A stretch of 64,000 nt of DNA from Spirochaetales bacterium (GCA_028532905.1 JAQQAM010000097.1:8506-72505), one strand, 5' to 3'; positions 4,615 through 42,432 are shown, counted from the first letter of the stretch. Numbers and translations: made by a program. Notes: generated by a model from the letters alone, not told the origin.

Positions 4615-4730
4615 TTAAATTTCCCCTACGCCGAGCGAAAACACCTTCACCCGTCCGGAGGGGTATGGTGTTGAGCCGATAGGGTTTGTCTGGAAACGGG
4701 CAGGCCTCCCAGTGTGGAAAGGCAGAGAAA
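4615..4730 (+). promoter_or_regulatory. Putative Moco/Tuco (molybdenum/tungsten cofactor) riboswitch upstream of tupA
   Basis: The conserved blocks I remember for the Moco RNA motif appear in the correct order: CCGAGC(4630s) ... GAGCC(4673) ... GUCUGG(4688) ... GCCUCCC(4704) ... GGAAAGG(4717). The element sits in the 5' leader of a tungstate-transport/Moco-biosynthesis operon. Boundaries are approximate. Confidence 0.55.
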
Positions 4731-4849
4731 ATCATACACCGTAGCTGGACAGAGTTTTATTACAAATGAATCCTCCTGCCGGATCTCTCATGCCTTCAAT
4801 ATTGTATGCGCCTGCAAAATGGGGCGCTGAAAAACTATTGGAGAAATCT

Positions 4850-20523: not shown

Positions 20524-22398
20524 TTATGACCTCATTAACTTTTTAAGATCCCCTTCAGAGGGTCCCCCGCTGGCATCATATCCCCGAACCCGGTAGTACT
20601 GCCTGACCATCTTTTCAATGGGAACAACCGTGTTCTTTCCTTTAAAGGCGGTCTCTTTCTCACCGGTGAAGCGCCCGGGAAGGGTATCGTCGGCCGGAGT
20701 CTGTCCCATCTGAATATTCATCCAGCGCTCCAGTTTGTTGATCCGTTCTCCGGCTTTGATAAAACCCCATTTCCCCATTTTAATCCCGGTGACAGACCAG
20801 AAGTATTTGTTCAGAATGCTCCAGTCCATCAGTGCCATAGCCACTTTAGGCATGGAAATGGTGGCTATTTTCAGCAGAAACGCCGGCAGATATTTGGGAA
20901 TGACAGGTTCGGTCATAATACCGAATACCGAAAAGAGACAGACCTGAAGGGAATTGACTCCCGAATACATGTCCTCCATAAAGGCGACCCAGGAGGCTTT
21001 GCCCAGTGTCACGTGGGGAGGCATATACCCCAGGTGCTGCTCCATGGCAATCAGGTAGGAACCCAGATGACAGCCCCCCTTGTTATGCACCGCATAGCCC
21101 AGACCGTGGCCCCAGCTGGAACGGGGATCATAGGCGGCCACTTCAATTCCCTTGACCTGTATGGCAAAGTCCTCCCCGCCGTATTTCCGGCTCAGATTCC
21201 GGGAGCCCCGGGCAAGATCCTCCCCTTCCCCTTTCCTGCAGGCGATATCTCTTAAGATGGATTCTATATTGTCAAAACGGCCGAACTTCAGTTCCGTATC
21301 CCGCAGTCCCTGTTCACCGGCCTCCATGGCCCAGGCGATGGTGCCGCCGGCAGAGATGGTGTCCATTCCCAGCTCATTCATCACATCATTCCACTGTCCC
21401 ACAAGATCAGGATCGTAGTTATCGATATTGCTGCCGAACATTCCCATGGTTTCATATTCGGGAATCTGCCGCATCCTGCCGTCGGGGTACGTTCCTTTAT
21501 GTCCGCAGAGAACCGTGCAGTGCCGGCAGGTGGAGTGACGGGTTCTGTATTTTTCGGCCATCACTTCTCCCGAGTTTCTGACAATATCCGGATGATACCG
21601 GTCTCTGAAATTATGAACCGGAGCAAAGCCTCTCTCCATTCCCAGCTTCACATTTATATTGGTACCGTACAGACGGTAATCATTGCTCATCTTATTGCGG
21701 AGGATATATTTTCTGGCCTTTTTGACTGTGGCTTTCAGACGTTCGGGATCTGCCGCTTCGTAGCGGTACTCCTTCCCCCTGGCTACCACTGCCTTAAGGT
21801 TCTTGGAGCCCATAACGGCTCCCACTCCCCCTCTGCCGGCGAAACGGTGTCCCGAGCAGATATTGGCATAGAGCACTTTGTTCTCACCCGCAGGTCCGAT
21901 AACCGCAGCACCTTCTTTGGGACTCAGATTCAGGGATTCCTGAACCTCATGGGTACCCTGTCCCCAGAGCTCTTCTGCCGATTCAAAGCTCACGCCGTCT
22001 CTGTCAATTCTCAGGGTAAGGGGCAAGGCCGCCTGTCCGGAGATAATGACCCCGTCCCAGCCGGCTGTTTTACAGGCCTCTCCGAAGGGGCCGCCGCAGG
22101 AGGAGCCCACCATCAGCCCCGTCAGGGGAGATCGGGTTACAACTTCAAAACGGGCGGAACAGGGAGCACCGGTACTCAGCATGACTCCCATGGAAAAAAT
22201 CAGAAGATTATCGGCTCCCAGAGGATCAACATCCCCCAGCTGCCTCCCGGCAAAACGGTCATAATAGATTTTCAGAGCCAGCCCTTTGCCGCCGATATAG
22301 GCTTTCAGATCCATTTCTGAAATCTCATAGACAGACCAGCTCTGATCGCTCAAATTGATATCCAGGTATTTATTGGATGTACCTTTAATAATCTGCAC
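20524..22398 (-). CDS. aor: Aldehyde:ferredoxin oxidoreductase (AOR family, tungstopterin enzyme)
   Basis: 624 aa. The N-terminal AFOR_N-type sequence (GGKGLALKIYY, RFEVVTRSPLTG), the cluster-binding region HSTCRHCTVLCGH and the length all fit the AOR family. Confidence 0.85.
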   Translation of the reverse strand: MQIIKGTSNKYLDINLSDQSWSVYEISEMDLKAYIGGKGLALKIYYDRFAGRQLGDVDPLGADNLLIFSMGVMLSTGAPCSARFEVVTRSPLTGLMVGSSCGGPFGEACKTAGWDGVIISGQAALPLTLRIDRDGVSFESAEELWGQGTHEVQESLNLSPKEGAAVIGPAGENKVLYANICSGHRFAGRGGVGAVMGSKNLKAVVARGKEYRYEAADPERLKATVKKARKYILRNKMSNDYRLYGTNINVKLGMERGFAPVHNFRDRYHPDIVRNSGEVMAEKYRTRHSTCRHCTVLCGHKGTYPDGRMRQIPEYETMGMFGSNIDNYDPDLVGQWNDVMNELGMDTISAGGTIAWAMEAGEQGLRDTELKFGRFDNIESILRDIACRKGEGEDLARGSRNLSRKYGGEDFAIQVKGIEVAAYDPRSSWGHGLGYAVHNKGGCHLGSYLIAMEQHLGYMPPHVTLGKASWVAFMEDMYSGVNSLQVCLFSVFGIMTEPVIPKYLPAFLLKIATISMPKVAMALMDWSILNKYFWSVTGIKMGKWGFIKAGERINKLERWMNIQMGQTPADDTLPGRFTGEKETAFKGKNTVVPIEKMVRQYYRVRGYDASGGPSEGDLKKLMRS

Positions 22399-24110: not shown

Positions 24111-24365
24111 ATATACCTCCGGAGGGATTCATACTAACCATATTGGAAACTCACGGCAATCCATAGGCCGGAAAAAAAACAGTAAATTGCTGCGGCGAAA
24201 CAGAAACACAAAAAAACATTAATAAACAGCAGCAATCATTAGTAAACATCTAAGCGTAATCGATTGTTTTTTTTCTGCGATCTGATATATAATTATAAAC
24301 CAGTGTAGATTTAAGCACTGAAAGAGTAAAATGAAACCGGCACAGCAGCCGCCAAGGGGAAGTTT

Positions 24366-26279
24366 ATGAGAAAAATGGCAATATCTGTTATTGCAGTTCT
24401 GATCTTGTTAACATCCTGTACAACTGTACAGCAGAATGAGATCTCAAGCTATTACTCAATGGTTTACGATATATGGTATGATGCATTCAGCCCTGTAGCT
24501 GAAGAGCATATCAAAACCGGCGACAGAGTTCTGATCATTAGTATGGGTCAGGGATTCAACGGCACGATGGCACGTTACGAATTCAAACAGGACGAAACCG
24601 CAGAGGCATTTGTCCTCCCGAAATACCTGGATGACCGTCCTTTTTTCACAGAATATTTTGAAAAGGGTCTTGTGAAGTCAATCATCGACAATCAGGGAAG
24701 GGGCTTTGAAAAACTGACTCTGCCTCCCCCCTCTTCAGATCCGAAACTGGCAAGCGACGTCCTTTCGGACTGGTCTCTGGCAGACTGGTATATTGATGAA
24801 GATCTGGTGTTCAACACCAATCCTCTGGATTTTGAAGACTGGGAAGAGCTGAAAAAAACCTACAATGTCAATAAAGTTCTGATGTATACGGTCAACCGGG
24901 TTGTGGAAAAAGACAACGACTACCTGGGTATTCAGGTGGGCGTGAAACTGATCGATGCGGATGAAAAAGGACTGATCCTTCACGATACAATCGAAAATGT
25001 TGTCTCTGTAGATTACCCTGATGATAAAATGAAACTGCTTCACCGTTACTACCTTGATGTTCCTTCAGAATCTCTGACCGGCTTCCAGGACAAGCTGTCT
25101 GAAGTTCTCAGCGATGAGGGAATCAGAGGCGGCATCGATGCGGTTATGATCAAGAATGATGATATCTCCACACTGGGGAACTATCCTGTCACCATAGAAG
25201 ACTTCATCCTGGAGCAGACTCTCACCAACAGCCTGACCTCAGGGGACACTCTCAATATTCTTGAAAAACTCTCCAAACGTCAGTACAAGAAAAACTGGCA
25301 GCTCAGTAATGCCATTTTCAATCTCAACCCTCTGATGGGCGGTGAGTACAGTGAGTTTGAAGGATACTACAACACTCAGTATATGCTCTCCTACAAGACT
25401 CTCTTTGCCGAACAGACAGGAGAAATCAAAGAAATCAGTGATGATAAGGTTGAACTGAATAAAAAGATTTTGGGAGTTCACCTCAAGCTGATTGATATGG
25501 CAGATCACGGTAGAATCGTTATGAGCCACTTCCTGCCTCTGGCATCCCAGAATGATCTGGATTCCAACTTTCTGTATAAGAGCTTCAACAGGGTCAATGA
25601 GCTGTCACTGATCACAGATGCTCTGGAAGAACAGAGTGTACTGGCCGACTCCGAAAAAGCTGTGGTGATCAATGAAAGAATGGAAATATTCAAACACCAC
25701 CTGCTGAGTAACTACAGCGCCTATGAGTACATGTTCAATCTGTTCAAGAATCCCAAAAACGCAGCTATTCTTACGGAATATGAAAAACTGTATAAGCTTC
25801 TGGATTCAGAAACAGCCGGACAGACCAATGGCGACATCTACTACATTATGGCGACTCATATTATGAACAGCTGGTTTGAAGAAGGACTGAACAATCTGCT
25901 GGTTAATCAGGGCTACTATGTTGTGGATAAACTGGAATCCTTCTATTCCCGTTATCTGATAACAGAAAAATACAAGAGGGGCGGTAACGCCAGTACGAAC
26001 ATCTTCCTGTCTCCCCTTCTTCTTGAAGAATGGGGCTCCGATATCAAGGATGTATATGACATAGATAAAATTCTGTATTACATCCCCATGGAAAAAGCCG
26101 TGAAAGACGGAGACTTCGTGACTCCCGGAACCGTTGCCAGCCAGACAACATCCGGCGAGATTTCACAGTACTACCCCATACTCTCCTATGAGCTGGAGAA
26201 AATGCTCTTCTCCATTCTTGATATTCAGACGGGAGATTATCTTTTCAACAGAAACTTCGATCTGGAAGGAGGAAACTAA
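24366..26279 (+). CDS. Lipoprotein of unknown function (637 aa) with three repeated LpoB/CsgG/TolB-N-like modules
   Basis: Lipobox LLTS-C18 after a hydrophobic signal. The hallmark x-hydrophobic-LID-x2-xG-x-hydrophobic strand recurs three times: GVKLIDADEKGLIL (192-205), HLKLIDMADHGRIV (372-385), FSILDIQTGDYLF (615-627). AAGGGGAAG Shine-Dalgarno. Confidence 0.6.
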   Translation: MRKMAISVIAVLILLTSCTTVQQNEISSYYSMVYDIWYDAFSPVAEEHIKTGDRVLIISMGQGFNGTMARYEFKQDETAEAFVLPKYLDDRPFFTEYFEKGLVKSIIDNQGRGFEKLTLPPPSSDPKLASDVLSDWSLADWYIDEDLVFNTNPLDFEDWEELKKTYNVNKVLMYTVNRVVEKDNDYLGIQVGVKLIDADEKGLILHDTIENVVSVDYPDDKMKLLHRYYLDVPSESLTGFQDKLSEVLSDEGIRGGIDAVMIKNDDISTLGNYPVTIEDFILEQTLTNSLTSGDTLNILEKLSKRQYKKNWQLSNAIFNLNPLMGGEYSEFEGYYNTQYMLSYKTLFAEQTGEIKEISDDKVELNKKILGVHLKLIDMADHGRIVMSHFLPLASQNDLDSNFLYKSFNRVNELSLITDALEEQSVLADSEKAVVINERMEIFKHHLLSNYSAYEYMFNLFKNPKNAAILTEYEKLYKLLDSETAGQTNGDIYYIMATHIMNSWFEEGLNNLLVNQGYYVVDKLESFYSRYLITEKYKRGGNASTNIFLSPLLLEEWGSDIKDVYDIDKILYYIPMEKAVKDGDFVTPGTVASQTTSGEISQYYPILSYELEKMLFSILDIQTGDYLFNRNFDLEGGN

Positions 26280-28069
26280 TGAAACGTATACTACTCATTA
26301 CCCTTATCCTGAATACCTTTATATTCTCTGCCTTTGCCAGGGAGTACAGCTATCTTAATCCTCCCACAATTTCCATTATGGATTTTGATGTTAATATGGA
26401 GACATCCCAGTATGTGATCAATGATGATGTTGTCCGGTATGACCAGGACTATTACGGACAGCTGATTAATCAGACTCTCCTGACCGTTCTGATCCAGAAA
26501 AACAGCGCCAATGAAACCTTCGTAATCAATGAAGAGAGCTACGGTGAAGAGCTGGGCGGATTCTATGCCAATGACAAACAGTTCAGCCAGGCGACCTATT
26601 TTCCCACACTGTTCAAGATCTATGATAAAAAATATGTGGAAACAGCCCTGGGCAACAACAATTACACCGTTAATGATCTGTACTCCAAGAATGCAGATGC
26701 CTTCAACTATGCAGACCTGGACTTTGTTGTTCTGGGGAATGTCTACAGGAAGGGTGACAGTGTTGCTGTGAATGTGAGAGTTCTCAGTACAAACAGAGGA
26801 GAAGAACTCTACTCCTATATTGGAACCATAAAAAGCGATATGTCCAACCTGAACAGCGTCTGTAACGCCATTGCAGGTAATATTATTACTGATGTTCTGA
26901 AAAATTACTGCTCCCAGTTCATTATCAAGGTGCAGGAAACAGAGGATAAGGACGCTGATAAAATGGTGCCCGTGGACGAGGGGAAACAGCCTGTTTACTT
27001 CTGCCAGTCCCGTCAGGAATACGACAACAGCGATGATGTGATCTCCTACAATGACACCTATAAGAAAGCCGTGGCCGCCAATGAATACTACTGGCTCCTT
27101 CCCGGAGACTATGTCTTCACGGTGTACAGCAAGCAGAACCAGACCGTCCATGAGATTCCTGTGACCATAGAACCCAGAGAAATCGAACTGGTTGAGATCA
27201 CAGAGGAACATTTCAAGGTCGAAAAAGGTTCACTCACAATTTCCGGTGTCTTCCCCACCGACGGATTCAACTTCAGAATCCAGGAGAAGGCCAAGGATGT
27301 TAAATACGTCTGGGAAATCAATCAGGGAGGCAACAAAGACACCAACGAGTACAGCTTTACCTTCCAGGACGGTGAAATCTCAAACCTTATGTTTAAATAT
27401 GACGGACGTTTCTATGATGACGACGACATGAAAAGCAATGGAGATGACAACAAAACACCCAAAATCAGCTACAACGCCTTTACGAATGAGATCAAGATCA
27501 GGGATCTGAATCTGTCCAAATATGATGTTAAGGTGAATCCGGTTGCCAAATCCATACAGAGAAAAGGGGTCACCGGTATTGTATACATCTCCTCAAGGGA
27601 AATTGAAACAAGTGACAATGTCATGGCAGACCTGCATGAAGAGAAGAATGTTACCATCAGTATGTCCGACTTTGATATTAAATCTGTTGACAAGGAAGAT
27701 GCCTTCCAGCAGACCAGAATCACATTCCTTTTTGACAAGGCCTTCTCAAATGAAACGGTGCATCTCTTTGTCACCAACCAGGATGTGGAAGGTTATGTTC
27801 CTATCCGGGACATAGAAAAACTGATCATTGAGGATGAGTATTCCGAAGATGACTGGGAAGCTCTGGCCGGTCAGTCTTTCCTGATATCCATGTACAGAGA
27901 CGGAATGAGTCCTTATCACAGATACATTGATTTTGAAGACATCAGGGCCTCAAAAGACAAAATTATTATCCTTGATCTGTCTCAGGATACAGGAGCCTTC
28001 GAAGTCGGTTCCTCCTCCAGCAGCAGGTCCGGAGGCGGTCTGCTTGGCGGTCTGTTTAAAGGAAATTAA
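26279..28069 (+). CDS. Secreted protein of unknown function (596 aa): N-terminal LpoB/CsgG-like module, beta-sandwich-like regions and a Ser/Gly tail
   Basis: Signal peptide MKRILLITLILNTFIFSAFA. TISIMDFDVN ... DFVVLGNVYRKGDSVAVNVRVLSTNRGEELYS (about 148-180). WLLPGDYVFTVYSKQNQ..IPVTIEP is a PEGA/CarboxypepD_reg-like strand pattern. C-terminal SSSSSRSGGGLLGGLFKGN. The ATG overlaps the upstream stop (TAATG). Confidence 0.6.
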   Translation: MKRILLITLILNTFIFSAFAREYSYLNPPTISIMDFDVNMETSQYVINDDVVRYDQDYYGQLINQTLLTVLIQKNSANETFVINEESYGEELGGFYANDKQFSQATYFPTLFKIYDKKYVETALGNNNYTVNDLYSKNADAFNYADLDFVVLGNVYRKGDSVAVNVRVLSTNRGEELYSYIGTIKSDMSNLNSVCNAIAGNIITDVLKNYCSQFIIKVQETEDKDADKMVPVDEGKQPVYFCQSRQEYDNSDDVISYNDTYKKAVAANEYYWLLPGDYVFTVYSKQNQTVHEIPVTIEPREIELVEITEEHFKVEKGSLTISGVFPTDGFNFRIQEKAKDVKYVWEINQGGNKDTNEYSFTFQDGEISNLMFKYDGRFYDDDDMKSNGDDNKTPKISYNAFTNEIKIRDLNLSKYDVKVNPVAKSIQRKGVTGIVYISSREIETSDNVMADLHEEKNVTISMSDFDIKSVDKEDAFQQTRITFLFDKAFSNETVHLFVTNQDVEGYVPIRDIEKLIIEDEYSEDDWEALAGQSFLISMYRDGMSPYHRYIDFEDIRASKDKIIILDLSQDTGAFEVGSSSSSRSGGGLLGGLFKGN

Positions 28070-28072
28070 AGT

Positions 28073-29905
28073 ATGAAAAAGTTTCCGGCGTTACTGTTGT
28101 TTATCGTCGTTTCGGCTTCAGCATGGAGTCAGAGTCACCAGTCCAGAGGTCTGGGGGTTATCAGAGAAACAGATATAAGGAACACCGCCGGAAACAGCGG
28201 AAAGCGCTATGCTGTGTGCATCGGTATCAACCAGTATGAGCATAGCGTCATCCAGAATCTGAACAATGCCAGAAATGATGCTCTGGCATTGGGCAGGATA
28301 TTTGAAAATGAAGGTCAGTTTGATCAGGTCTTTATAATGACCGATGATATTGATCCCCGCAGCGACAGTCAGAACAACTATCCCCGGCTCAGAAATATAG
28401 AAGGACGCCTTGATTATCTGAAGGATTTTATCAATCCCGAAGACCTGGTGGTGGTCTCATTTTCCGGCCACGGCATATCCAATGAAGAGGGAGAGGGGTA
28501 TCTGATTGTTGCCGACAGCGATGTCAATGATATCTACAACACCAGCTTTCCCATAAGCCGTCTGGTAGACTGGGTGGATGAACTGAAAGTTGAAAAATCA
28601 CTCTTCCTTATAGATGCCTGCCGTGAAACAATTTCCAGCCAGGCCAGCAGAAGCCTGACCCGGAATACTCTGACCTCCCAGCGTTACACAGGTTCAAAGC
28701 TGGGGGCAATATTCTACTCCACTAAAACCGGATGGCTCAGTTATGAAGACCAGGAATCGGATTACGGCGTTTTTACCCGTTTCCTCCTGGAAGGGCTGAA
28801 GGGTAAAGCCGATTACCAGTACGGAGACAGTGACAGCATTGTAACCTTCCGGGAGCTGTCCGTTTTTGTCGAAGAGGCTGTCAGCAATTACTCCATGACC
28901 CTGGGACTGAAACAGAAACCCTTTACCGATGTCCATGGAGAACTCTCCGGAGATATTGGAATAAGTTCTTATTCCGCCAGTATCGATATACAGACCAGAT
29001 CCAATGTGGAAGAAGGTCTGGAAGAGAACCGGGATGTGTTCGGACTTCTGTCCCTCTTTTCCAATGTAAAAGGAACCGTTCTGATTGACGGTATGGACAT
29101 GGGAGAAATTGACGCCGGAGAAACTGTGATATATGAAGATATCTATGCCGGCAGCCATTTTGTAGAGATCCAGCATGAATACGGCCGTTTCCGGAATGAA
29201 TTCGGTATTAAAGAGGATGAAACCAGCGAAATAGCCAATGTTGTGGTTCTGGGAGACCAGGACATCAAACGGGTTCACGGCATCAACTTTGTCTATATCA
29301 AAGGGCGGGGTTCCATGCCGGGATTCTGGATGAGCGATGCGGAAGTCACCATGGGGCAGTATGCCGACTTTATCGAAAGAAGCGAGTACAAAACCGTCAA
29401 TGACTGGGATCAGTACTATGAAGAGGGGTATTACTACTACCCCGCTCACAATGTGAGCAAGATTGATGCACAAGAATTCTGCAAGTGGTTTTCAAAGAGA
29501 TTCAGAGTCTCTGTTTCCCTTCCTACACTCCAGCAATGGCAGTATGCGGCGGGGGGCAAATACGGTACCAAATACTCATGGGGGAATCACTGGGATGTGA
29601 AGAACTGCCAGAATTCCAGCTCCAGGCAGCCGGGAGTCCTACCGGTCATCGGTACTCAGGGACCGACTCAGATTCAGGATTTTCAGAGAGATATAACCCT
29701 GGACGGACTGACCAATATGGCCGGAAACATGCGGGAGTGGTGCCGGGATGAGTACACCAACAGCGACGGGACGGTTATCGGCACCATCGCCGGCGGCAGC
29801 TGGAAGATGTCCCGATCCAGAAACTTCCAATCCATGTATACCGGTAAAAAACCGGCTCACCAGGCTGATGTAGACCTGGGATTCAGACTGATACTGGAGC
29901 CGTAA
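28073..29905 (+). CDS. Exported caspase-like (peptidase C14) protease fused to a PEGA-like domain and a C-terminal FGE-sulfatase/SUMF1-like domain that lacks the catalytic cysteines
   Basis: Signal peptide MKKFPALLLFIVVSASAWS. Caspase block RYAVCIGINQY..NARNDA, catalytic dyad SFSG-H133-G and LID-A-C183-R. PEGA-like segment GTVLIDGMDMGEI..GSHFVEIQ (about 323-392). FGE-like segment FVYIKG..FWMSDAEVTMGQY, NMAGNMREWC, GGSW...LGFRL (about 402-610). Confidence 0.8.
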   Translation: MKKFPALLLFIVVSASAWSQSHQSRGLGVIRETDIRNTAGNSGKRYAVCIGINQYEHSVIQNLNNARNDALALGRIFENEGQFDQVFIMTDDIDPRSDSQNNYPRLRNIEGRLDYLKDFINPEDLVVVSFSGHGISNEEGEGYLIVADSDVNDIYNTSFPISRLVDWVDELKVEKSLFLIDACRETISSQASRSLTRNTLTSQRYTGSKLGAIFYSTKTGWLSYEDQESDYGVFTRFLLEGLKGKADYQYGDSDSIVTFRELSVFVEEAVSNYSMTLGLKQKPFTDVHGELSGDIGISSYSASIDIQTRSNVEEGLEENRDVFGLLSLFSNVKGTVLIDGMDMGEIDAGETVIYEDIYAGSHFVEIQHEYGRFRNEFGIKEDETSEIANVVVLGDQDIKRVHGINFVYIKGRGSMPGFWMSDAEVTMGQYADFIERSEYKTVNDWDQYYEEGYYYYPAHNVSKIDAQEFCKWFSKRFRVSVSLPTLQQWQYAAGGKYGTKYSWGNHWDVKNCQNSSSRQPGVLPVIGTQGPTQIQDFQRDITLDGLTNMAGNMREWCRDEYTNSDGTVIGTIAGGSWKMSRSRNFQSMYTGKKPAHQADVDLGFRLILEP

Positions 29906-30536
29906 TCAGGCGGGACAGAGAGTCCAGTACCCAGGTGGGCTGAACCGGAAGATCCTCCAGTCTGTTCGGACCCCACTGTGCAAATGCCGTATCCACACCG
30001 GCGGAACTGCCGCTGTTAATATCCACATAGGCATCCCCTATAAAAAGAGTCTCTCCGGGAGAACTTCCCGATTCCTTCAGAGCCCAGAGGACAGGTTCAG
30101 GAGACGGTTTGTGTTCAGCTGTACATTCGGGTGTGGCTATGACAGAGAAATACTTAAAAAGATCAAAGTGCTTCAGGTAGGAAACAAGGGAAGGTCTTGT
30201 CCTTGAGGTCACAACCCCCAGAGTTTTTCCCTGATCAGACAAAGTCTTCAGGGTGTCCCGGACAGCAGGGAAAATCTGAAGATATTCAGGATAGATTTCC
30301 CCCTGATAGGTCATATGAAATTTCAGAATCTCATCCAGTTCCTCTTTTGAAAGAGGCCCCAGTACCATTTCCATCTGGGTTGCCAGAGGGATTCCTATCT
30401 TTGAGAGGATATCATCCCGGTCTACTTCCATTCCCCTGTAGACACGGCATGTGTTCACGAATGTCTGATAGATCAGTTCCATAGTATCCAGAAGAGTTCC
30501 GTCTATATCAAAAAAGTAGGTTTTGTAATCTTTCAT
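29883..30536 (-). CDS. HAD-superfamily hydrolase (phosphoglycolate phosphatase/PpaX-like)
   Basis: FFDIDGTLLDT (motif I), GVVTSR (motif II), FIGDAYVDINSG (motif IV). It overlaps the convergent caspase gene by 23 nt. Confidence 0.8.
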   Translation of the reverse strand: MKDYKTYFFDIDGTLLDTMELIYQTFVNTCRVYRGMEVDRDDILSKIGIPLATQMEMVLGPLSKEELDEILKFHMTYQGEIYPEYLQIFPAVRDTLKTLSDQGKTLGVVTSRTRPSLVSYLKHFDLFKYFSVIATPECTAEHKPSPEPVLWALKESGSSPGETLFIGDAYVDINSGSSAGVDTAFAQWGPNRLEDLPVQPTWVLDSLSRLITAPVSV

Positions 30537-31535: not shown

Positions 31536-32756
31536 ATGACCCATAAAGAGAAATCTCTTACAATCAAGGAAGTGGCACAGTTTCTGGGGATATCCAATCA
31601 GATGGTCTACAACCTGATAAAAGACAAGAAGATAGAAGCCTTTAAAGTCGGCAGTGCCATCAGAATTCTATCCTCCGATCTCTATGCTTATATTGAGAGG
31701 CAGAAGGAACTGTTTCATTCGCCCCGGGAGGGTATTGAAAACTCCGATGAAAACGTCTTTATGGTGCATAATATCTGCTTCCGGAGGGAACAGTTCCAAC
31801 TGGAAAACATCAGTTTTACCATACCAAGAGGCAAGATTCTCTCTGTTATCGGTCCCTCCGGTTCCGGTAAGACAATGCTCCTCAAAGCAATTGCCGGAAT
31901 AAACAAGGCAGAACAGGGTGTGGTCTATCTGGGAAGCAAACGCCTGGACAACATCCCGGCAAGAGACCGGAATATCGGTTTTGTATTTGAAGACTATGCC
32001 CTGATGCCCAATAGAAACGGCCGGGGCAATATCCGTTTTCCACTGGAAATGATCAAACACCTGAAAAAAGACGAAATAGATCCGGCCGTCAGTGCTCTGG
32101 CCGAGGAACTGAAACTGAGCCGGGATGATCTGGATACGGTCATCTCGGAACTCCCTGAAGGGGTAAAGCAGATGATTGCTATTGCCAAGGCGGACATCCG
32201 TAATATTGATCTTCTGATTATGGACGAACCTCTGGCCAGACTGGATGCCCAGGTCAGGCTTCAGATGCGCAGTTTTCTTAAAGAACTTGTTGTGAAACTC
32301 GGAAAAACAACAATTCTGAGTCTACATGACCCTGAGACAGCTCTGGCCATGAGTGACTATATTGCGGTTCTGGACAAGGGGAAGCTGATCCAGTTCGGCA
32401 CAGCCACCGAAGTATACGGCCATCCTGAAACAGAAATTGTATTGGAGATGACCTCCCGCTATGCAGTGAATGATATTCCTGTACAGGTTCTAAAAGGGAA
32501 AACAGATCCTTTGAACCTTGAAACAGACAGGGAAGACGGCCGGTACAAGCTCTTTTTCAGAGCAGATGAGATAGAACTGCACAAGGATGGTATGGAAGTG
32601 GAGGTTCAGGACAGGCATGTACTGGACGGCAGCAGAGTCCTTGCCGGCTGCAGCAGTCCCGAGGGAAGCCTGCAGCTGGTCGTCCCGGCAGAGTATGGAG
32701 AGATTTTCAGCTTTCGGCCGAAATCCTTCTTTCTGTCGGGCCCGGAGAATTCATAA
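31536..32756 (+). CDS. Fusion protein: excisionase/MerR-superfamily HTH, MalK-like ABC ATPase with a degenerate signature motif, and a C-terminal regulatory (TOBE-like) domain
   Basis: N-terminus LTIKEVAQFLGISNQMVYNLIKDKKIEAFKVGSAIRI (HTH_17 type). Walker A GPSGSGKT, Q-loop position FEDYALMP (Glu instead of Gln), signature position LPEGVKQ instead of LSGGQ, Walker B LLIMDEPLARLD, H-loop SLHD. No permease or SBP gene is adjacent. Confidence 0.7.
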   Translation: MTHKEKSLTIKEVAQFLGISNQMVYNLIKDKKIEAFKVGSAIRILSSDLYAYIERQKELFHSPREGIENSDENVFMVHNICFRREQFQLENISFTIPRGKILSVIGPSGSGKTMLLKAIAGINKAEQGVVYLGSKRLDNIPARDRNIGFVFEDYALMPNRNGRGNIRFPLEMIKHLKKDEIDPAVSALAEELKLSRDDLDTVISELPEGVKQMIAIAKADIRNIDLLIMDEPLARLDAQVRLQMRSFLKELVVKLGKTTILSLHDPETALAMSDYIAVLDKGKLIQFGTATEVYGHPETEIVLEMTSRYAVNDIPVQVLKGKTDPLNLETDREDGRYKLFFRADEIELHKDGMEVEVQDRHVLDGSRVLAGCSSPEGSLQLVVPAEYGEIFSFRPKSFFLSGPENS

Positions 32757-41478: not shown

Positions 41479-42432
41479 TTATCTGGATTTAGAGGGAATC
41501 ATATTGTGCTTTTCCGCGTCATAAAGGGTCACTCTGTTTTTACCGTTTTTCTTTGATACATACAGAGCCCGGTCGGCTCCTTCAATCAGGTCGGCTGTGG
41601 TATTAATATCTTCAGAAACACAGGCCAGACCAATACTGACTGTGACAGAGAGGCTCTGTCCATCCTCATTGGTGACGACCATTTCTTCTATGGCTCTGCG
41701 AAGTCGTTCAGCAAAAGTGAGAGCCCCATCGGGAGGTGTATCCAGCAGTACAACAGCAAATTCTTCTCCGCCGAAACGGGCGGCTATATCGCTGCCTCTG
41801 ATAATACCTGAACAGACAGTCCCCAGTTCTTTCAGAACCAGATCTCCAAAGGGATGTCCCAGGTTATCATTCACTTTCTTGAAATTATCAATATCCAGCA
41901 TAAGAAAACTGAAGTCCCGATGACTTCTGTTATACCTTTTGATCTCCTCATCCAGCCTGCTGTCCAGATATCGTCTGTTATACAGTCCTGTCAGAGCATC
42001 CTGACGTGTCATCATTTTCAGATTCTGTTCCAGGTAAACACTCTCTGTCACGTTCTGTACAGTGATGACAACCTTTCCCCTGCTGTCTTCATTATCCGGC
42101 AGAGGCACGAGTGAACAACTTTGCTGCATATACTCAAACTGCTTTGCATAGATACCCTTGGCGGGAAAGGGAAAAAGAAAGTTATGCAGTTTCTGTGACA
42201 GATAGACATGATTTTTAAATTTCAAAACAGACTTTATGCTTCTGGTAAAAAAAGGTGTATTCAGATGGGTAAAATGATTAAAAAGGTGGGTACCTTCAAT
42301 ATCTTGTCTTTTGATACCGCTGTTAATTTCCATCCAGTGATTCCAGAGGATCACCGTATAATGGCTGTCCAGAATGACAATTCCCGAATTCAGGACATCT
42401 AGTATACTCCGTTCCAAATGTCTATTCTCCAA
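41479..42432 (-). CDS. PAS-domain diguanylate cyclase (GGDEF)
   Basis: N-terminal PAS (LNSGIVILDSHYTVILWNHWME), active site GGEEF with an RGSD (RxxD) I-site five residues upstream. Confidence 0.85.
   Translation of the reverse strand: MENRHLERSILDVLNSGIVILDSHYTVILWNHWMEINSGIKRQDIEGTHLFNHFTHLNTPFFTRSIKSVLKFKNHVYLSQKLHNFLFPFPAKGIYAKQFEYMQQSCSLVPLPDNEDSRGKVVITVQNVTESVYLEQNLKMMTRQDALTGLYNRRYLDSRLDEEIKRYNRSHRDFSFLMLDIDNFKKVNDNLGHPFGDLVLKELGTVCSGIIRGSDIAARFGGEEFAVVLLDTPPDGALTFAERLRRAIEEMVVTNEDGQSLSVTVSIGLACVSEDINTTADLIEGADRALYVSKKNGKNRVTLYDAEKHNMIPSKSR

What the first reader, a model, noticed from the sequence alone, without database searches (positions are those of the whole stretch)
24366..29905. 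Three-gene envelope operon that fits no named system: triple-module lipoprotein, secreted CsgG/LpoB-like protein, exported caspase-PEGA-FGE-like protease
**Coupling.** The three genes are tightly linked. The gene 1 stop overlaps the gene 2 ATG (TAATG at 26277-26281). Gene 3 starts 3 nt after the gene 2 stop. Genes 2 and 3 each have their own GGAGGA or AAAGGAAA Shine-Dalgarno.

**Export.** All three products carry export signals: a lipobox with Cys18 in gene 1 and classical signal peptides in genes 2 and 3.

**Domains.** Genes 1 and 2 (637 and 596 aa) contain no enzymatic domain I recognise. They repeatedly show the strand motif typical of LpoB/CsgG/TolB-N-like periplasmic scaffolds. Gene 3 supplies an apparently intact caspase His/Cys dyad.

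**Context.** The block sits between a divergent PAQR gene and a convergent HAD gene, so it is probably an autonomous unit. An upstream TTGTTT-N18-TATAAT (24264-24293) could be its promoter. A dedicated periplasmic caspase-like protease co-encoded with two large scaffold proteins suggests regulated envelope proteolysis or surface-structure assembly. I cannot map it to curli, holdfast, flagellar or any known defence system.
Basis: partly seen in the sequence, partly recalled or inferred. Interest (0 to 1): 0.75.

Follow-up and report, generated by a model that had tools for sequence, protein, structure and literature searches.

The report
Spirochaete envelope operon with exported caspase
Three tightly coupled genes for exported proteins (a lipoprotein built of three repeated modules, a stalk-like protein with a PelC/LpoB-type head, and a caspase-like protease fused to a non-catalytic lectin-like domain) form a real, conserved but uncharacterised envelope operon in marine and freshwater spirochaetes, often next to a membrane sensor-cyclase whose signal is unknown.

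Summary
Three co-directional ORFs sit at 24366-26279, 26279-28069 and 28073-29905, with a 1-nt overlap and a 3-nt gap. All three products carry export signals.

- **g3:** Pfam finds Peptidase_C14 plus FGE-sulfatase. His133 and Cys183 are invariant in 11 homologues. The two catalytic cysteines of FGE are absent, so this domain is a binding module.
- **g2:** an AlphaFold model (pLDDT 78) gives an N-terminal domain that Foldseek matches to TolB-N, FlgT, PelC, GNA1162 and LpoB, followed by Ig-like sandwiches.
- **g1:** a lipoprotein with three tandem copies of a roughly 130-aa module. No Pfam or PDB relative was found. The family has only 24 clusters among 1.84 billion representative proteins.

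The order g1-g2-g3 recurs in 13 distinct spirochaete loci with differing flanks, including Oceanispirochaeta. It is therefore not a chance adjacency.

New findings:
- A CHASE2 adenylate/guanylate cyclase lies nearby in 5 loci, and a DUF4384 protein in 4.
- Long-form g2 proteins carry what looks like a C-terminal outer-membrane beta-barrel.
- Marinimicrobia have g1-like/g2-like pairs without the caspase.

The function is inferred, not shown. My best reading is an outer-membrane-tethered periplasmic scaffold that positions a caspase-like protease, probably feeding envelope signalling. No named system fits.

The parts
24264..24293 (+). Candidate promoter (TTGTTT-N18-TATAAT); weak
   Evidence: The sequence was read. 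The -35 hexamer matches 3 of 6 positions, and the consensus scan did not list the site. Unverified.
24366..26279 (+). g1: lipoprotein of 637 aa (signal peptide plus lipobox LTSC, Cys18), made of three tandem modules
   Evidence: ORF. Cys18 is invariant. No Pfam, NCBIfam or PDB relative. The family has only 24 clusters at 50% identity among 1.84 billion representatives.
24600..24983 (+). g1 module 1 (residues 79-206)
   Evidence: Single-sequence phmmer with module 3 of the distant relative P0071 hits residues 76-212 at E=3.6e-6. The iterated module HMM covers 79-206. See alignment A5.
25167..25526 (+). g1 module 2 (residues 268-387)
   Evidence: phmmer hits residues 271-385 at E=2.6e-6. The iterated HMM covers 268-387.
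25821..26249 (+). g1 module 3 (residues 486-628), the most divergent copy, with an insertion
   Evidence: phmmer hits residues 474-588 at E=0.016. The iterated HMM covers 486-628.
26279..28069 (+). g2: secreted protein of 596 aa (signal peptide 1-20, no lipobox)
   Evidence: ORF. There are 39 homologues, all from spirochaete sources where a source is named. AlphaFold model with pLDDT 78.
26363..26908 (+). g2 N-terminal alpha/beta domain (about residues 29-210) with the TolB-N/LpoB/PelC/GNA1162-type fold
   Evidence: Foldseek against PDB: TolB E=1e-7, FlgT 3w1e, PelC 9h80/5t11, GNA1162 4hrv (TMt 0.63) and LpoB 4q6l (TMt 0.59), all at probability 1.00. The mapping to residues 29-210 is inferred from the model's secondary structure.
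26912..28006 (+). g2 all-beta region (about residues 212-576): three to four Ig-like beta-sandwich domains
   Evidence: Secondary structure of the model. Foldseek matches to Fab and Ig-domain chains.
28007..28066 (+). g2 disordered Gly/Ser tail ending in GGLLGGLFKGN
   Evidence: pLDDT is below 50. A tail motif like GFFxxLFGG recurs in short-form homologues. Long-form homologues instead carry a beta-barrel-like extension of about 170 aa.
28073..29905 (+). g3: exported protease-like protein of 610 aa (signal peptide about 1-19)
   Evidence: ORF. This is the best conserved of the three proteins, at 40-80% identity across the loci.
28202..28924 (+). g3 caspase (Peptidase_C14) domain, residues 44-284. 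His133 codon is at 28469-28471 and Cys183 codon at 28619-28621
   Evidence: Pfam 69.2 bits against a cutoff of 21.4. H133 and C183 are invariant in 11 of 11 sequences.
   Evidence: No Pfam family matches. PEGA matched 1 of 11 members at E=0.16. The whole segment is missing in the L011 homologue, so it is dispensable.
29315..29893 (+). g3 FGE-sulfatase-like (C-type-lectin-fold) domain, residues 415-607, non-catalytic
   Evidence: Pfam 94.7 bits. The closest solved sequences are PorK/GldK, ToxD and SUMF2. Positions equivalent to human FGE Cys336 and Cys341 are not Cys in any of 4 family members (the FGE fragment was verified).

Best explanation
**Shown.** This is a genuine, conserved three-gene operon of a marine spirochaete (a Spirochaetales MAG close to Oceanispirochaeta). 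It encodes three exported proteins.
- g1 is a lipoprotein made of three tandem copies of a novel module of about 130 aa.
- g2 has an N-terminal PelC/LpoB/TolB-N-type domain followed by a chain of Ig-like sandwiches.
- g3 is a caspase-family protein with an intact His/Cys dyad, fused to an FGE-like lectin-fold domain. That domain has lost the FGE catalytic cysteines.

**Inferred mechanism.**
- g1 and g2 form a periplasmic scaffold attached to the membranes: g1 by its lipid anchor, and g2 by a C-terminal outer-membrane beta-barrel in long-form homologues or by a short hydrophobic tail here.
- The scaffold recruits or gates g3, whose lectin-like domain supplies target or partner binding.
- g3 then cleaves envelope proteins in a controlled way.
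- A CHASE2 adenylate/guanylate cyclase and DUF4384 or CsgG-like proteins are repeatedly linked to the operon in relatives. The most likely role is therefore envelope sensing or signalling, with proteolysis modulating the input to a periplasmic CHASE2 sensor, rather than bulk degradation or secretion.
- g1/g2 appear to be the ancestral core. The protease appears to be an add-on, because g1-like/g2-like pairs exist without it in Marinimicrobia.
For: - **Gene order and coupling:** g1-g2-g3 recur in order, with tight coupling, in 13 distinct loci whose flanks differ.
- **Export signals:** they are conserved in all three families.
- **g2 fold:** Foldseek hits TolB-N, FlgT, PelC, GNA1162 and LpoB at probability 1.00, using a model with pLDDT 78.
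- **g1 triple module:**
- **g3 domains and dyad:**. The FGE cysteines are lost, and the closest solved sequences include the T9SS ring protein PorK/GldK.
- **Long-form g2:** an Ala/Pro/Ser/Thr-rich linker is followed by a Gly-rich region of about 170 aa with an alternating hydrophobic pattern, ending in F or L. Gly is 10-16% there against 4-7% elsewhere, and charged residues are 10-15% against 21-25%.
- **CHASE2 cyclase:** it lies directly upstream on the same strand in L010, L013 and L014, 5 kb upstream in L005, and downstream in L003.
- **DUF4384 proteins:** found in L003, L010, L014 and L019. The L019 protein also has a CsgG domain, and a second CsgG/LpoB-like protein lies nearby.
- **Marinimicrobia pairs without a caspase:**
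- **Literature:** caspase-CHASE2 fusions are already known elsewhere (PMC3501461, PMC8195603).
Against: - No functional data of any kind are available.
- The g1 fold is unknown. The AlphaFold model has pLDDT 38.6. Profile comparisons of the g1 module with the g2 family, PDB and Pfam were not significant.
- The window itself has no CHASE2 or DUF4384 gene within 64 kb. L001, L025 and L026 also lack them within 8-9 kb.
- Three of the five cyclase-linked loci (L010, L013, L014) may share the arrangement by descent. Independent occurrences of the link are therefore few.
- The beta-barrel reading of long-form g2 has no Pfam support.
- Similarity between the Marinimicrobia partner and g2 is collinear but weak (2-6 bits).
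- Physical interaction among the three proteins is purely inferred from operon structure.
Confidence: 0.4

Rival explanations
1. It is a periplasmic ring or cage that forms part of a secretion or surface-structure assembly machine. In this view g2 (PelC/CsgG-type head) and g1 oligomerise under the outer membrane as PelC, CsgG or FlgT do. The g3 FGE-like domain plays a PorK/GldK-like structural role, and the caspase domain matures the cargo.
For: - The g2 N-terminal domain matches ring-forming proteins: PelC dodecamer, FlgT H-ring and GNA1162.
- The g3 FGE-like domain is closest in sequence to PorK/GldK among solved structures, with a weak NCBIfam GldK hit.
- Long-form g2 carries a putative outer-membrane barrel.
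- An OMP_b-brl_2 gene lies directly upstream of g1 in L007.
Against: - No glycosyltransferase, polymer-export, curli, T9SS (PorL/M/N) or fibre-subunit gene recurs next to the operon.
- The GldK score is 42 bits against a cutoff of 350.
- No cargo candidate is conserved.
- Oligomerisation is untested.
Confidence: 0.2
2. It is an envelope-located conflict or defence system. The lectin-fold FGE-like (FGS) domain of g3 would sense an invader molecule, such as a phage or predator component entering the periplasm. The caspase domain would be the effector. This would be an exported analogue of the cytoplasmic STAND-FGS-caspase systems.
For: - Caspase plus FGS is standard vocabulary of bacterial conflict systems (PMC8195603).
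- There is a weak NCBIfam hit to the EACC1-associated caspase (58 bits) and a PADLOC 'caspase' hit at E=2e-7.
- The operon sits in different genomic contexts in different genomes.
Against: - No NTPase, EAD adaptor, DGR reverse transcriptase or template repeat was found.
- The EACC1 score is far below its cutoff of 140.
- g3 is the most conserved of the three proteins (40-80% identity) rather than diversifying.
- The operon has the same flanks in the window and in Oceanispirochaeta.
- No mobile-element genes flank it.
- Recurrent neighbours are signalling genes, not defence genes.
Confidence: 0.12
3. g1 and g2 are substrates or inhibitors of g3 rather than scaffolds. For example, they could be surface or periplasmic proteins that need caspase-type maturation, or a protease/anti-protease set.
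For: Co-translation-style coupling and strict co-occurrence in spirochaetes fit an enzyme-substrate operon equally well. The g1/g2 pair can exist alone in Marinimicrobia, as would be expected of proteins with a function of their own.
Against: No conserved cleavage motif was identified, and this was not tested systematically. LpoB/PelC-type domains are typically adaptors. The model does not explain the linkage to the CHASE2 cyclase.
Confidence: 0.15
4. The adjacency of three unrelated genes is a matter of chance.
For: None beyond the lack of functional data.
Against: The same order and tight spacing occur in 13 loci, down to 30% identity and with unrelated flanks.
Confidence: 0.01

Closest known systems
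Prokaryotic caspase homologues (orthocaspases/metacaspases) fused to an FGE-sulfatase domain
   Same: g3 has exactly this architecture, with an intact His/Cys dyad. The combination was catalogued in 33 of 671 prokaryotic metacaspases (PMC3501461).
   Different: None of those proteins has been characterised. The signal peptide, the fixed operon partners g1 and g2, and the loss of the FGE cysteines are, as far as the papers I read show, not described.
PelC / LpoB / CsgG / TolB-N / GNA1162 / FlgT periplasmic alpha-beta fold
   Same: The g2 N-terminal domain has this fold (Foldseek probability 1.00, TMt 0.5-0.63). Like these proteins, g2 is exported and probably associated with the outer membrane.
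   Different: There is no detectable sequence similarity to any of them. g2 has no lipobox and is fused to Ig-like domains. No pel, curli, tol or flagellar genes lie nearby. For g1 the fold is only hinted at: a marginal CsgG hit in the distant relative P0067 (20.5 bits against 20.8), and non-significant Foldseek hits to GNA1162 and PelC from a poor model.
T9SS ring lipoprotein PorK/GldK (non-catalytic FGE-like domain)
   Same: The g3 C-terminal domain is most similar in sequence to PorK/GldK among solved structures (E about 6e-8). Like them, it is a non-enzymatic FGE-fold domain in the periplasm.
   Different: The NCBIfam GldK score is 42 against a cutoff of 350. There is no lipobox and there are no PorL/M/N partners. 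The host phylum has no T9SS context here.
Cytoplasmic FGS-domain conflict systems (STAND NTPase-FGS with caspase/TIR effectors) and DGR-diversified FGE/CLec-fold proteins
   Same: A lectin-fold FGS domain is combined with a caspase (PMC8195603).
   Different: All three proteins here are exported. There is no NTPase and no adaptor domain. No template repeat for the 3' end of g3 was found in the window, and no reverse-transcriptase gene appeared among the neighbours annotated (the window was not scanned systematically for one).
CHASE2-domain sensor proteins, including caspase-CHASE2 fusions
   Same: A CHASE2 cyclase is a recurrent neighbour. Caspase-CHASE2 fusions exist in cyanobacteria and in EACC2 systems (PMC3501461; PMC8195603).
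   Different: In those fusions the caspase is cytoplasmic and CHASE2 is extracytoplasmic. Here the caspase homologue would share the periplasm with the CHASE2 domain. The window itself has no CHASE2 gene.

Membership tests
Peptidase C14 (caspase/metacaspase/orthocaspase) | Sequence match to the family profile above the curated threshold | tested here: met
   g3 scores 69.2 bits on PF00656 against a cutoff of 21.4. All 11 family members match.
Peptidase C14 (caspase/metacaspase/orthocaspase) | Catalytic His/Cys dyad present | tested here: met
   H133 (SGHG) and C183 (DACR) are invariant in 11 of 11 sequences.
Peptidase C14 (caspase/metacaspase/orthocaspase) | Peptidase activity and P1 specificity | not testable with these tools
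   This needs an enzyme assay with a C183A control.
Formylglycine-generating enzyme (FGE/SUMF1) | FGE-sulfatase fold/profile match | tested here: met
   PF03781 scores 94.7 bits against a cutoff of 23.3, over residues 415-607.
Formylglycine-generating enzyme (FGE/SUMF1) | Catalytic cysteine pair (human Cys336/Cys341) | tested here: not met
   In the alignment with the human FGE C-terminus (verified against PDB 8aru/1y1e), the Cys336 position holds M, L, Y or L, and the Cys341 position falls in a deletion, in 4 family members. This is not an FGE enzyme.
CsgG (curli secretion channel) | Pfam CsgG profile match; lipoprotein; csgA/B/E/F neighbours | tested here: not met
   g1 and g2 of the window have no CsgG hit. 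There are only marginal hits in distant g1 relatives. g2 lacks a lipobox. No curli genes lie nearby.
LpoB / PelC / TolB-N-like fold superfamily | Three-dimensional fold similarity | tested here: met
   For the g2 N-terminal domain only: Foldseek probability 1.00 to TolB, FlgT, PelC, GNA1162 and LpoB.
LpoB / PelC / TolB-N-like fold superfamily | The same fold in the three g1 modules | tested here: inconclusive
   The g1 model has pLDDT 38.6. Foldseek found nothing at E<=0.001, and among the top-ranked weak hits those with the highest probability are GNA1162 (0.69) and PelC (about 0.5). hhalign, PDB and Pfam profile searches were not significant.
T9SS PorK/GldK | NCBIfam equivalog score; lipoprotein; PorL/M/N partners | tested here: not met
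   TIGR03525 scores 42 bits against a cutoff of 350. No lipobox and no partner genes were seen.
PEGA domain (claimed for the middle of g3) | Pfam PF08308 match | tested here: not met
   The window protein has no hit at E<=1. One of 11 homologues hits at E=0.16.
Known anti-phage defence systems (PADLOC) / EACC1-type caspase systems | Profile matches to system components; NTPase or adaptor partners | tested here: not met
   PADLOC gives only a generic caspase hit. caspase_w_EACC1 scores 58 bits against a cutoff of 140. There are no partner genes.
Diversity-generating retroelement target protein (FGE/CLec-fold variable protein) | A template repeat matching the 3' end of the gene, plus a reverse transcriptase nearby | tested here: not met
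   blastn of 29300-29905 against the whole window finds no second copy longer than 25 nt.

The most novel reading that the evidence does not exclude
The operon, together with the CHASE2 cyclase and the DUF4384/CsgG-like proteins that accompany it in relatives, is a previously unrecognised trans-envelope signalling device. An outer-membrane-tethered scaffold (g2, g1) controls an exported caspase-like protease (g3). Its cleavage product, or its cleavage of the sensor complex, is the long-sought input of a CHASE2 domain. Envelope state would thereby be converted into a cyclic-nucleotide signal.
Probability: 0.2. Interest if true: 0.8.

Novelty: new variant of a known kind. Interest (0 to 1): 0.55.

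Why it matters
**Caspase homologues.** Bacterial caspase homologues are abundant, but almost none has a known substrate or role. Most discussion assumes cytoplasmic roles in cell death or immunity. Here a clearly exported, dyad-intact caspase homologue is locked into a conserved operon with two envelope scaffold proteins. That gives a defined, genetically compact system in which a non-death, periplasmic role could be tested. Oceanispirochaeta genomes (GCA_013166645.2) carry the operon.

**CHASE2.** The recurrent linkage to CHASE2 cyclases offers a concrete hypothesis for a sensor domain whose ligands are still unknown (PMC10581220).

**g1 family.** The g1 module is a new repeat family, without Pfam coverage, that is shared with Marinimicrobia.

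Tried and rejected
- **Profile search to widen the g1 family.** It returned the same 10 proteins because of the candidate cap, so the search was wasted.
- **AlphaFold on g1 with 10 sequences.** pLDDT was 38.6, which is unusable. The Foldseek run on that model gave nothing significant.
- **Homology between g1 modules and the g2 N-terminal domain.** hhalign was not significant. Only the terminal beta-hairpin aligns.
- **g1 module profile against PDB and Pfam.** Nothing was found.
- **PADLOC.** No system was found.
- **DGR hypothesis for the g3 FGE-like domain.** No template repeat was found.
- **PEGA label.** It is not supported.
- **A 77-aa ORF upstream of g1 in L001.** It looked like a cyclase remnant. 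Its hit in L010 is out of frame with the cyclase, and its hit in the window lies in a PfkB kinase. I dropped it as noise.
- **HMM of the long-form g2 C-terminal extension against all ORFs of the window and the loci.** It hit only long-form g2 proteins. The window has no stand-alone counterpart, and the OMP gene in L007 is unrelated.
- **Pfam on long-form g2.** It gave no support for an outer-membrane-barrel family.
- **Composition.** GC of g1/g2 (43-44%) is within the range seen across the window, so there is no sign of recent transfer.

Full report
**1. The observation**

- The g1 stop and the g2 start share one base (TAATG). g3 starts 3 nt after the g2 stop. GGAGGA and AAAGGAAA precede the g2 and g3 starts.
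- g1 begins MRKMAISVIAVLILLTSC, a canonical lipobox. g2 begins with a signal peptide ending SAFA|RE, and g3 with one ending ASAWS|Q.
- Upstream lies a divergent HlyIII/PAQR gene. Downstream lies a convergent HAD hydrolase that overlaps the last 23 nt of g3.
- The proposed promoter has a perfect -10 hexamer but only a 3-of-6 match at -35. The consensus scan did not report it.
- GC content of g1/g2 (43-44%) is within the window's range.

**2. What the proteins are**

*g3.* It matches Pfam Peptidase_C14 (residues 44-284, 69 bits) and FGE-sulfatase (residues 415-607, 95 bits).
- His133 and Cys183 are invariant in an alignment of 11 homologues.
- The FGE-like domain is closest in sequence to PorK/GldK, ToxD and SUMF2 among solved structures.
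- I aligned it to the human FGE C-terminus, after verifying that fragment against PDB entries. The two catalytic cysteines are absent in all four family members examined. This domain is therefore a lectin-fold binding module, not an enzyme.
It is missing altogether in one homologue, L011.

*g2.* It has no Pfam, NCBIfam or PDB sequence relative.
- An AlphaFold2 model built from 37 homologues reached pLDDT 78.
- Foldseek against PDB matched TolB (E=1e-7), FlgT, PelC, GNA1162 (TMt 0.63), LpoB (TMt 0.59) and HpaA, all at probability 1.00. It also matched many Ig-fold chains.
- From the model's secondary structure, the alpha/beta head is about residues 29-210. Residues 212-576 form three to four beta-sandwiches. 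The last 20 residues are disordered.

*g1.* It also has no database relative.
- A full HMMER scan of 1.84 billion representative proteins with the family profile found only 24 clusters at E<=1e-3.
- The most distant hits (P0067, P0069-P0073) show two or three clean tandem modules.
- A single module from one of them (P0071), used alone in phmmer, hits the window's g1 at 76-212 (E=3.6e-6), 271-385 (E=2.6e-6) and 474-588 (E=0.016). An iterated module HMM delimits 79-206, 268-387 and 486-628. The 'triple-module' reading is therefore correct.
- Whether the module has the LpoB/CsgG fold remains open. The g1 model failed (pLDDT 38.6). Profile comparisons to the g2 family, PDB and Pfam were not significant.
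- The only hints are a borderline Pfam CsgG hit on the last hairpin of the distant relative P0067 (20.5 bits against a cutoff of 20.8; two other relatives reach only about 12.5 bits), and non-significant Foldseek hits to GNA1162 and PelC.

**3. Conservation**

The proteins come from a Spirochaetales MAG (locus tags PQJ58_07430/07435). All named homologues are spirochaetal.
- Using look-ups of g2 homologues, a scan of GTDB species genomes and a metagenome scan, I collected 13 distinct loci with g1, g2 and g3 in the same order and strand: the window, L001, L003, L005, L007, L008, L010, L013, L014, L015, L019, L025 and L026. Identities to the window proteins run from 30% to about 80%.
- The upstream proteins in these loci are true g1 homologues.
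- Intergenic gaps stay between -4 and about +60 nt.
- Flanking genes differ between lineages. The exception is Oceanispirochaeta sp. GCA_013166645.2, where the flanks match the window.
- One variant, L011, has a shorter g3-like gene on the opposite strand.
- Across the loci outside the Oceanispirochaeta group, g3 is the most conserved of the three proteins (40-62% identity to the window protein, against 30-65% for g1 and 30-51% for g2).

Chance adjacency is excluded.

**4.

*(a) A recurrent sensor-cyclase neighbour.* A CHASE2-domain adenylate/guanylate cyclase is a recurrent neighbour.
- It lies directly upstream on the same strand in L010, L013 and L014, 5 kb upstream in L005, and downstream in L003.
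- A DUF4384 protein accompanies the operon in L003, L010, L014 and L019.
- In L019 that protein also carries a CsgG domain, and a further CsgG/LpoB-like protein lies nearby.
- The positions of these genes relative to the operon differ between lineages. That argues for functional rather than merely inherited linkage, although the number of independent events is small.
- The window has neither gene within 64 kb.

*(b) Two forms of g2.*
- Long forms (768-851 aa) add an Ala/Pro/Ser/Thr-rich linker and a Gly-rich, low-charge region of about 170 aa with an alternating hydrophobic pattern, ending in F or L. This is the signature of a small outer-membrane beta-barrel. Pfam does not recognise it.
- Short forms, including the window's, end in a Gly/Ser linker and a GFFxxLFGG-like tail.

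*(c) Relatives outside the spirochaetes.* The distant triple-module relatives belong to Candidatus Neomarinimicrobiota.
- There the g1-like gene is followed by a protein of 556-561 aa with the same layout as g2: a signal peptide, 'DPPMIYIYxF', a 'TDFIxIGEI...EIDLKxxDVS' hairpin, beta-rich domains and an aromatic C-terminal tail.
- Its similarity to g2 is only weak and collinear.
- No caspase gene is present in either locus.
- This suggests that g1/g2 is a core pair and the protease a spirochaete addition.

**5. Mechanism**

*Shown:* a conserved operon; export signals; an intact caspase dyad; a non-catalytic FGE-like domain; a PelC/LpoB-type head and an Ig-like stalk in g2; and a triple repeat in g1.

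*Inferred:*
- g1 (lipid-anchored) and g2 (anchored to the outer membrane by a barrel or tail) build a periplasmic scaffold.
- The scaffold positions or gates g3, whose lectin-like domain provides partner or target recognition.
- Proteins with the g2 head fold typically act as adaptors or ring-formers under the outer membrane (PelC, CsgG, FlgT, LpoB, TolB; established knowledge of those families).
- The recurrent CHASE2 cyclase suggests that the output is signalling. CHASE2 is a periplasmic sensor domain whose ligands are unknown (PMC10581220). Caspase-CHASE2 fusions are known in other phyla (PMC3501461, PMC8195603).

I rate this scaffolded-protease and envelope-signalling model at about 0.4. 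The rivals are:
- a secretion or assembly ring (0.2);
- g1/g2 as substrates or inhibitors of g3 (0.15);
- an exported conflict system analogous to the cytoplasmic FGS-caspase systems (0.12). No NTPase or template repeat was found and PADLOC gave no system; no reverse-transcriptase gene was seen among the neighbours annotated;
- chance adjacency (about 0).

**6. Comparison and novelty**

The g3 architecture was catalogued in 2012 (33 of 671 prokaryotic metacaspases, PMC3501461) but never characterised. The g2 head belongs structurally, but not by sequence, to the PelC/LpoB/TolB-N group. g1 is a new repeat family.

Membership in CsgG, PorK/GldK, FGE enzymes, PEGA, EACC1 systems, PADLOC systems and DGR targets was tested and not met.

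The ensemble is best described as a new variant built from known parts: an exported caspase homologue with dedicated envelope scaffolds. No named system fits it. Interest is moderate (0.55). The operon is real, conserved and unexplained, and it offers a handle on two open problems: the roles of bacterial caspase homologues and the input to CHASE2. However, every functional statement is still inference.

Noticed in passing
window 4617-4740 (+): A molybdenum/tungsten cofactor riboswitch (Rfam RF01055, 52.8 bits against a gathering score of 36). The same window carries an aldehyde:ferredoxin oxidoreductase, typically a tungsten enzyme, at 20524-22398 (-) with an adjacent 4Fe-4S ferredoxin.
   Followed up: no
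window 29883-29905: The convergent HAD hydrolase gene (29883-30536, -) overlaps the last 23 nt of g3. No terminator-like hairpin was found between them.
   Followed up: partly
window 31536-32756 (+); also L025 15409-16629: An unusual fusion of an excisionase-type HTH_17 domain to an ABC-transporter ATPase domain. It is conserved in Oceanispirochaeta at the syntenic position.
   Followed up: no
L001 8001-10307, L005 8001-10556, L010 10186-12513, L013 10195-12573, L014 10141-12552: Long-form g2 homologues carry a low-complexity linker and a Gly-rich C-terminal region of about 170 aa with an alternating hydrophobic pattern, ending in F or L. This looks like an 8-stranded outer-membrane beta-barrel. 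Pfam does not recognise it.
   Followed up: partly
L016 271-3615; L018 8001-11314: Candidatus Neomarinimicrobiota MAGs carry a two-gene unit: a triple-module lipoprotein distantly related to g1, followed by a protein of 556-561 aa with a g2-like layout. No caspase gene lies nearby.
   Followed up: partly
L019 8760-9830 (-) and 11329-13068 (-): Convergent with g3 is a 356-aa protein combining a CsgG domain (22.7 bits) with DUF4384 (79.8 bits). Two genes further on is a 579-aa protein with CsgG/LpoB-like hits. The neighbourhood is rich in this fold.
   Followed up: partly
L007 2468-3322 (+) and 3898-4635 (+): Directly upstream of g1 is an OMP_b-brl_2 outer-membrane barrel gene. Before that is an Apyc1-like metallo-beta-lactamase-fold protein, a family annotated as cyclic-nucleotide phosphodiesterases. 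This may be relevant to the cyclic-nucleotide link, or it may be coincidental.
   Followed up: no
L015 6858-8432 (-): A 524-aa protein with an LPP20 lipoprotein domain lies convergent downstream of g3.
   Followed up: no
L011 4562-6172 (-): A variant locus. The caspase-FGE gene is on the opposite strand and is 536 aa long. It lacks the whole middle beta-rich segment, and a 155-aa ORF of unknown function follows g2.
   Followed up: partly
window 41479-42432 (-): A PAS-GGDEF diguanylate cyclase lies about 11.5 kb downstream of the operon. No CHASE2 or class III cyclase gene was found anywhere in the window.
   Followed up: no
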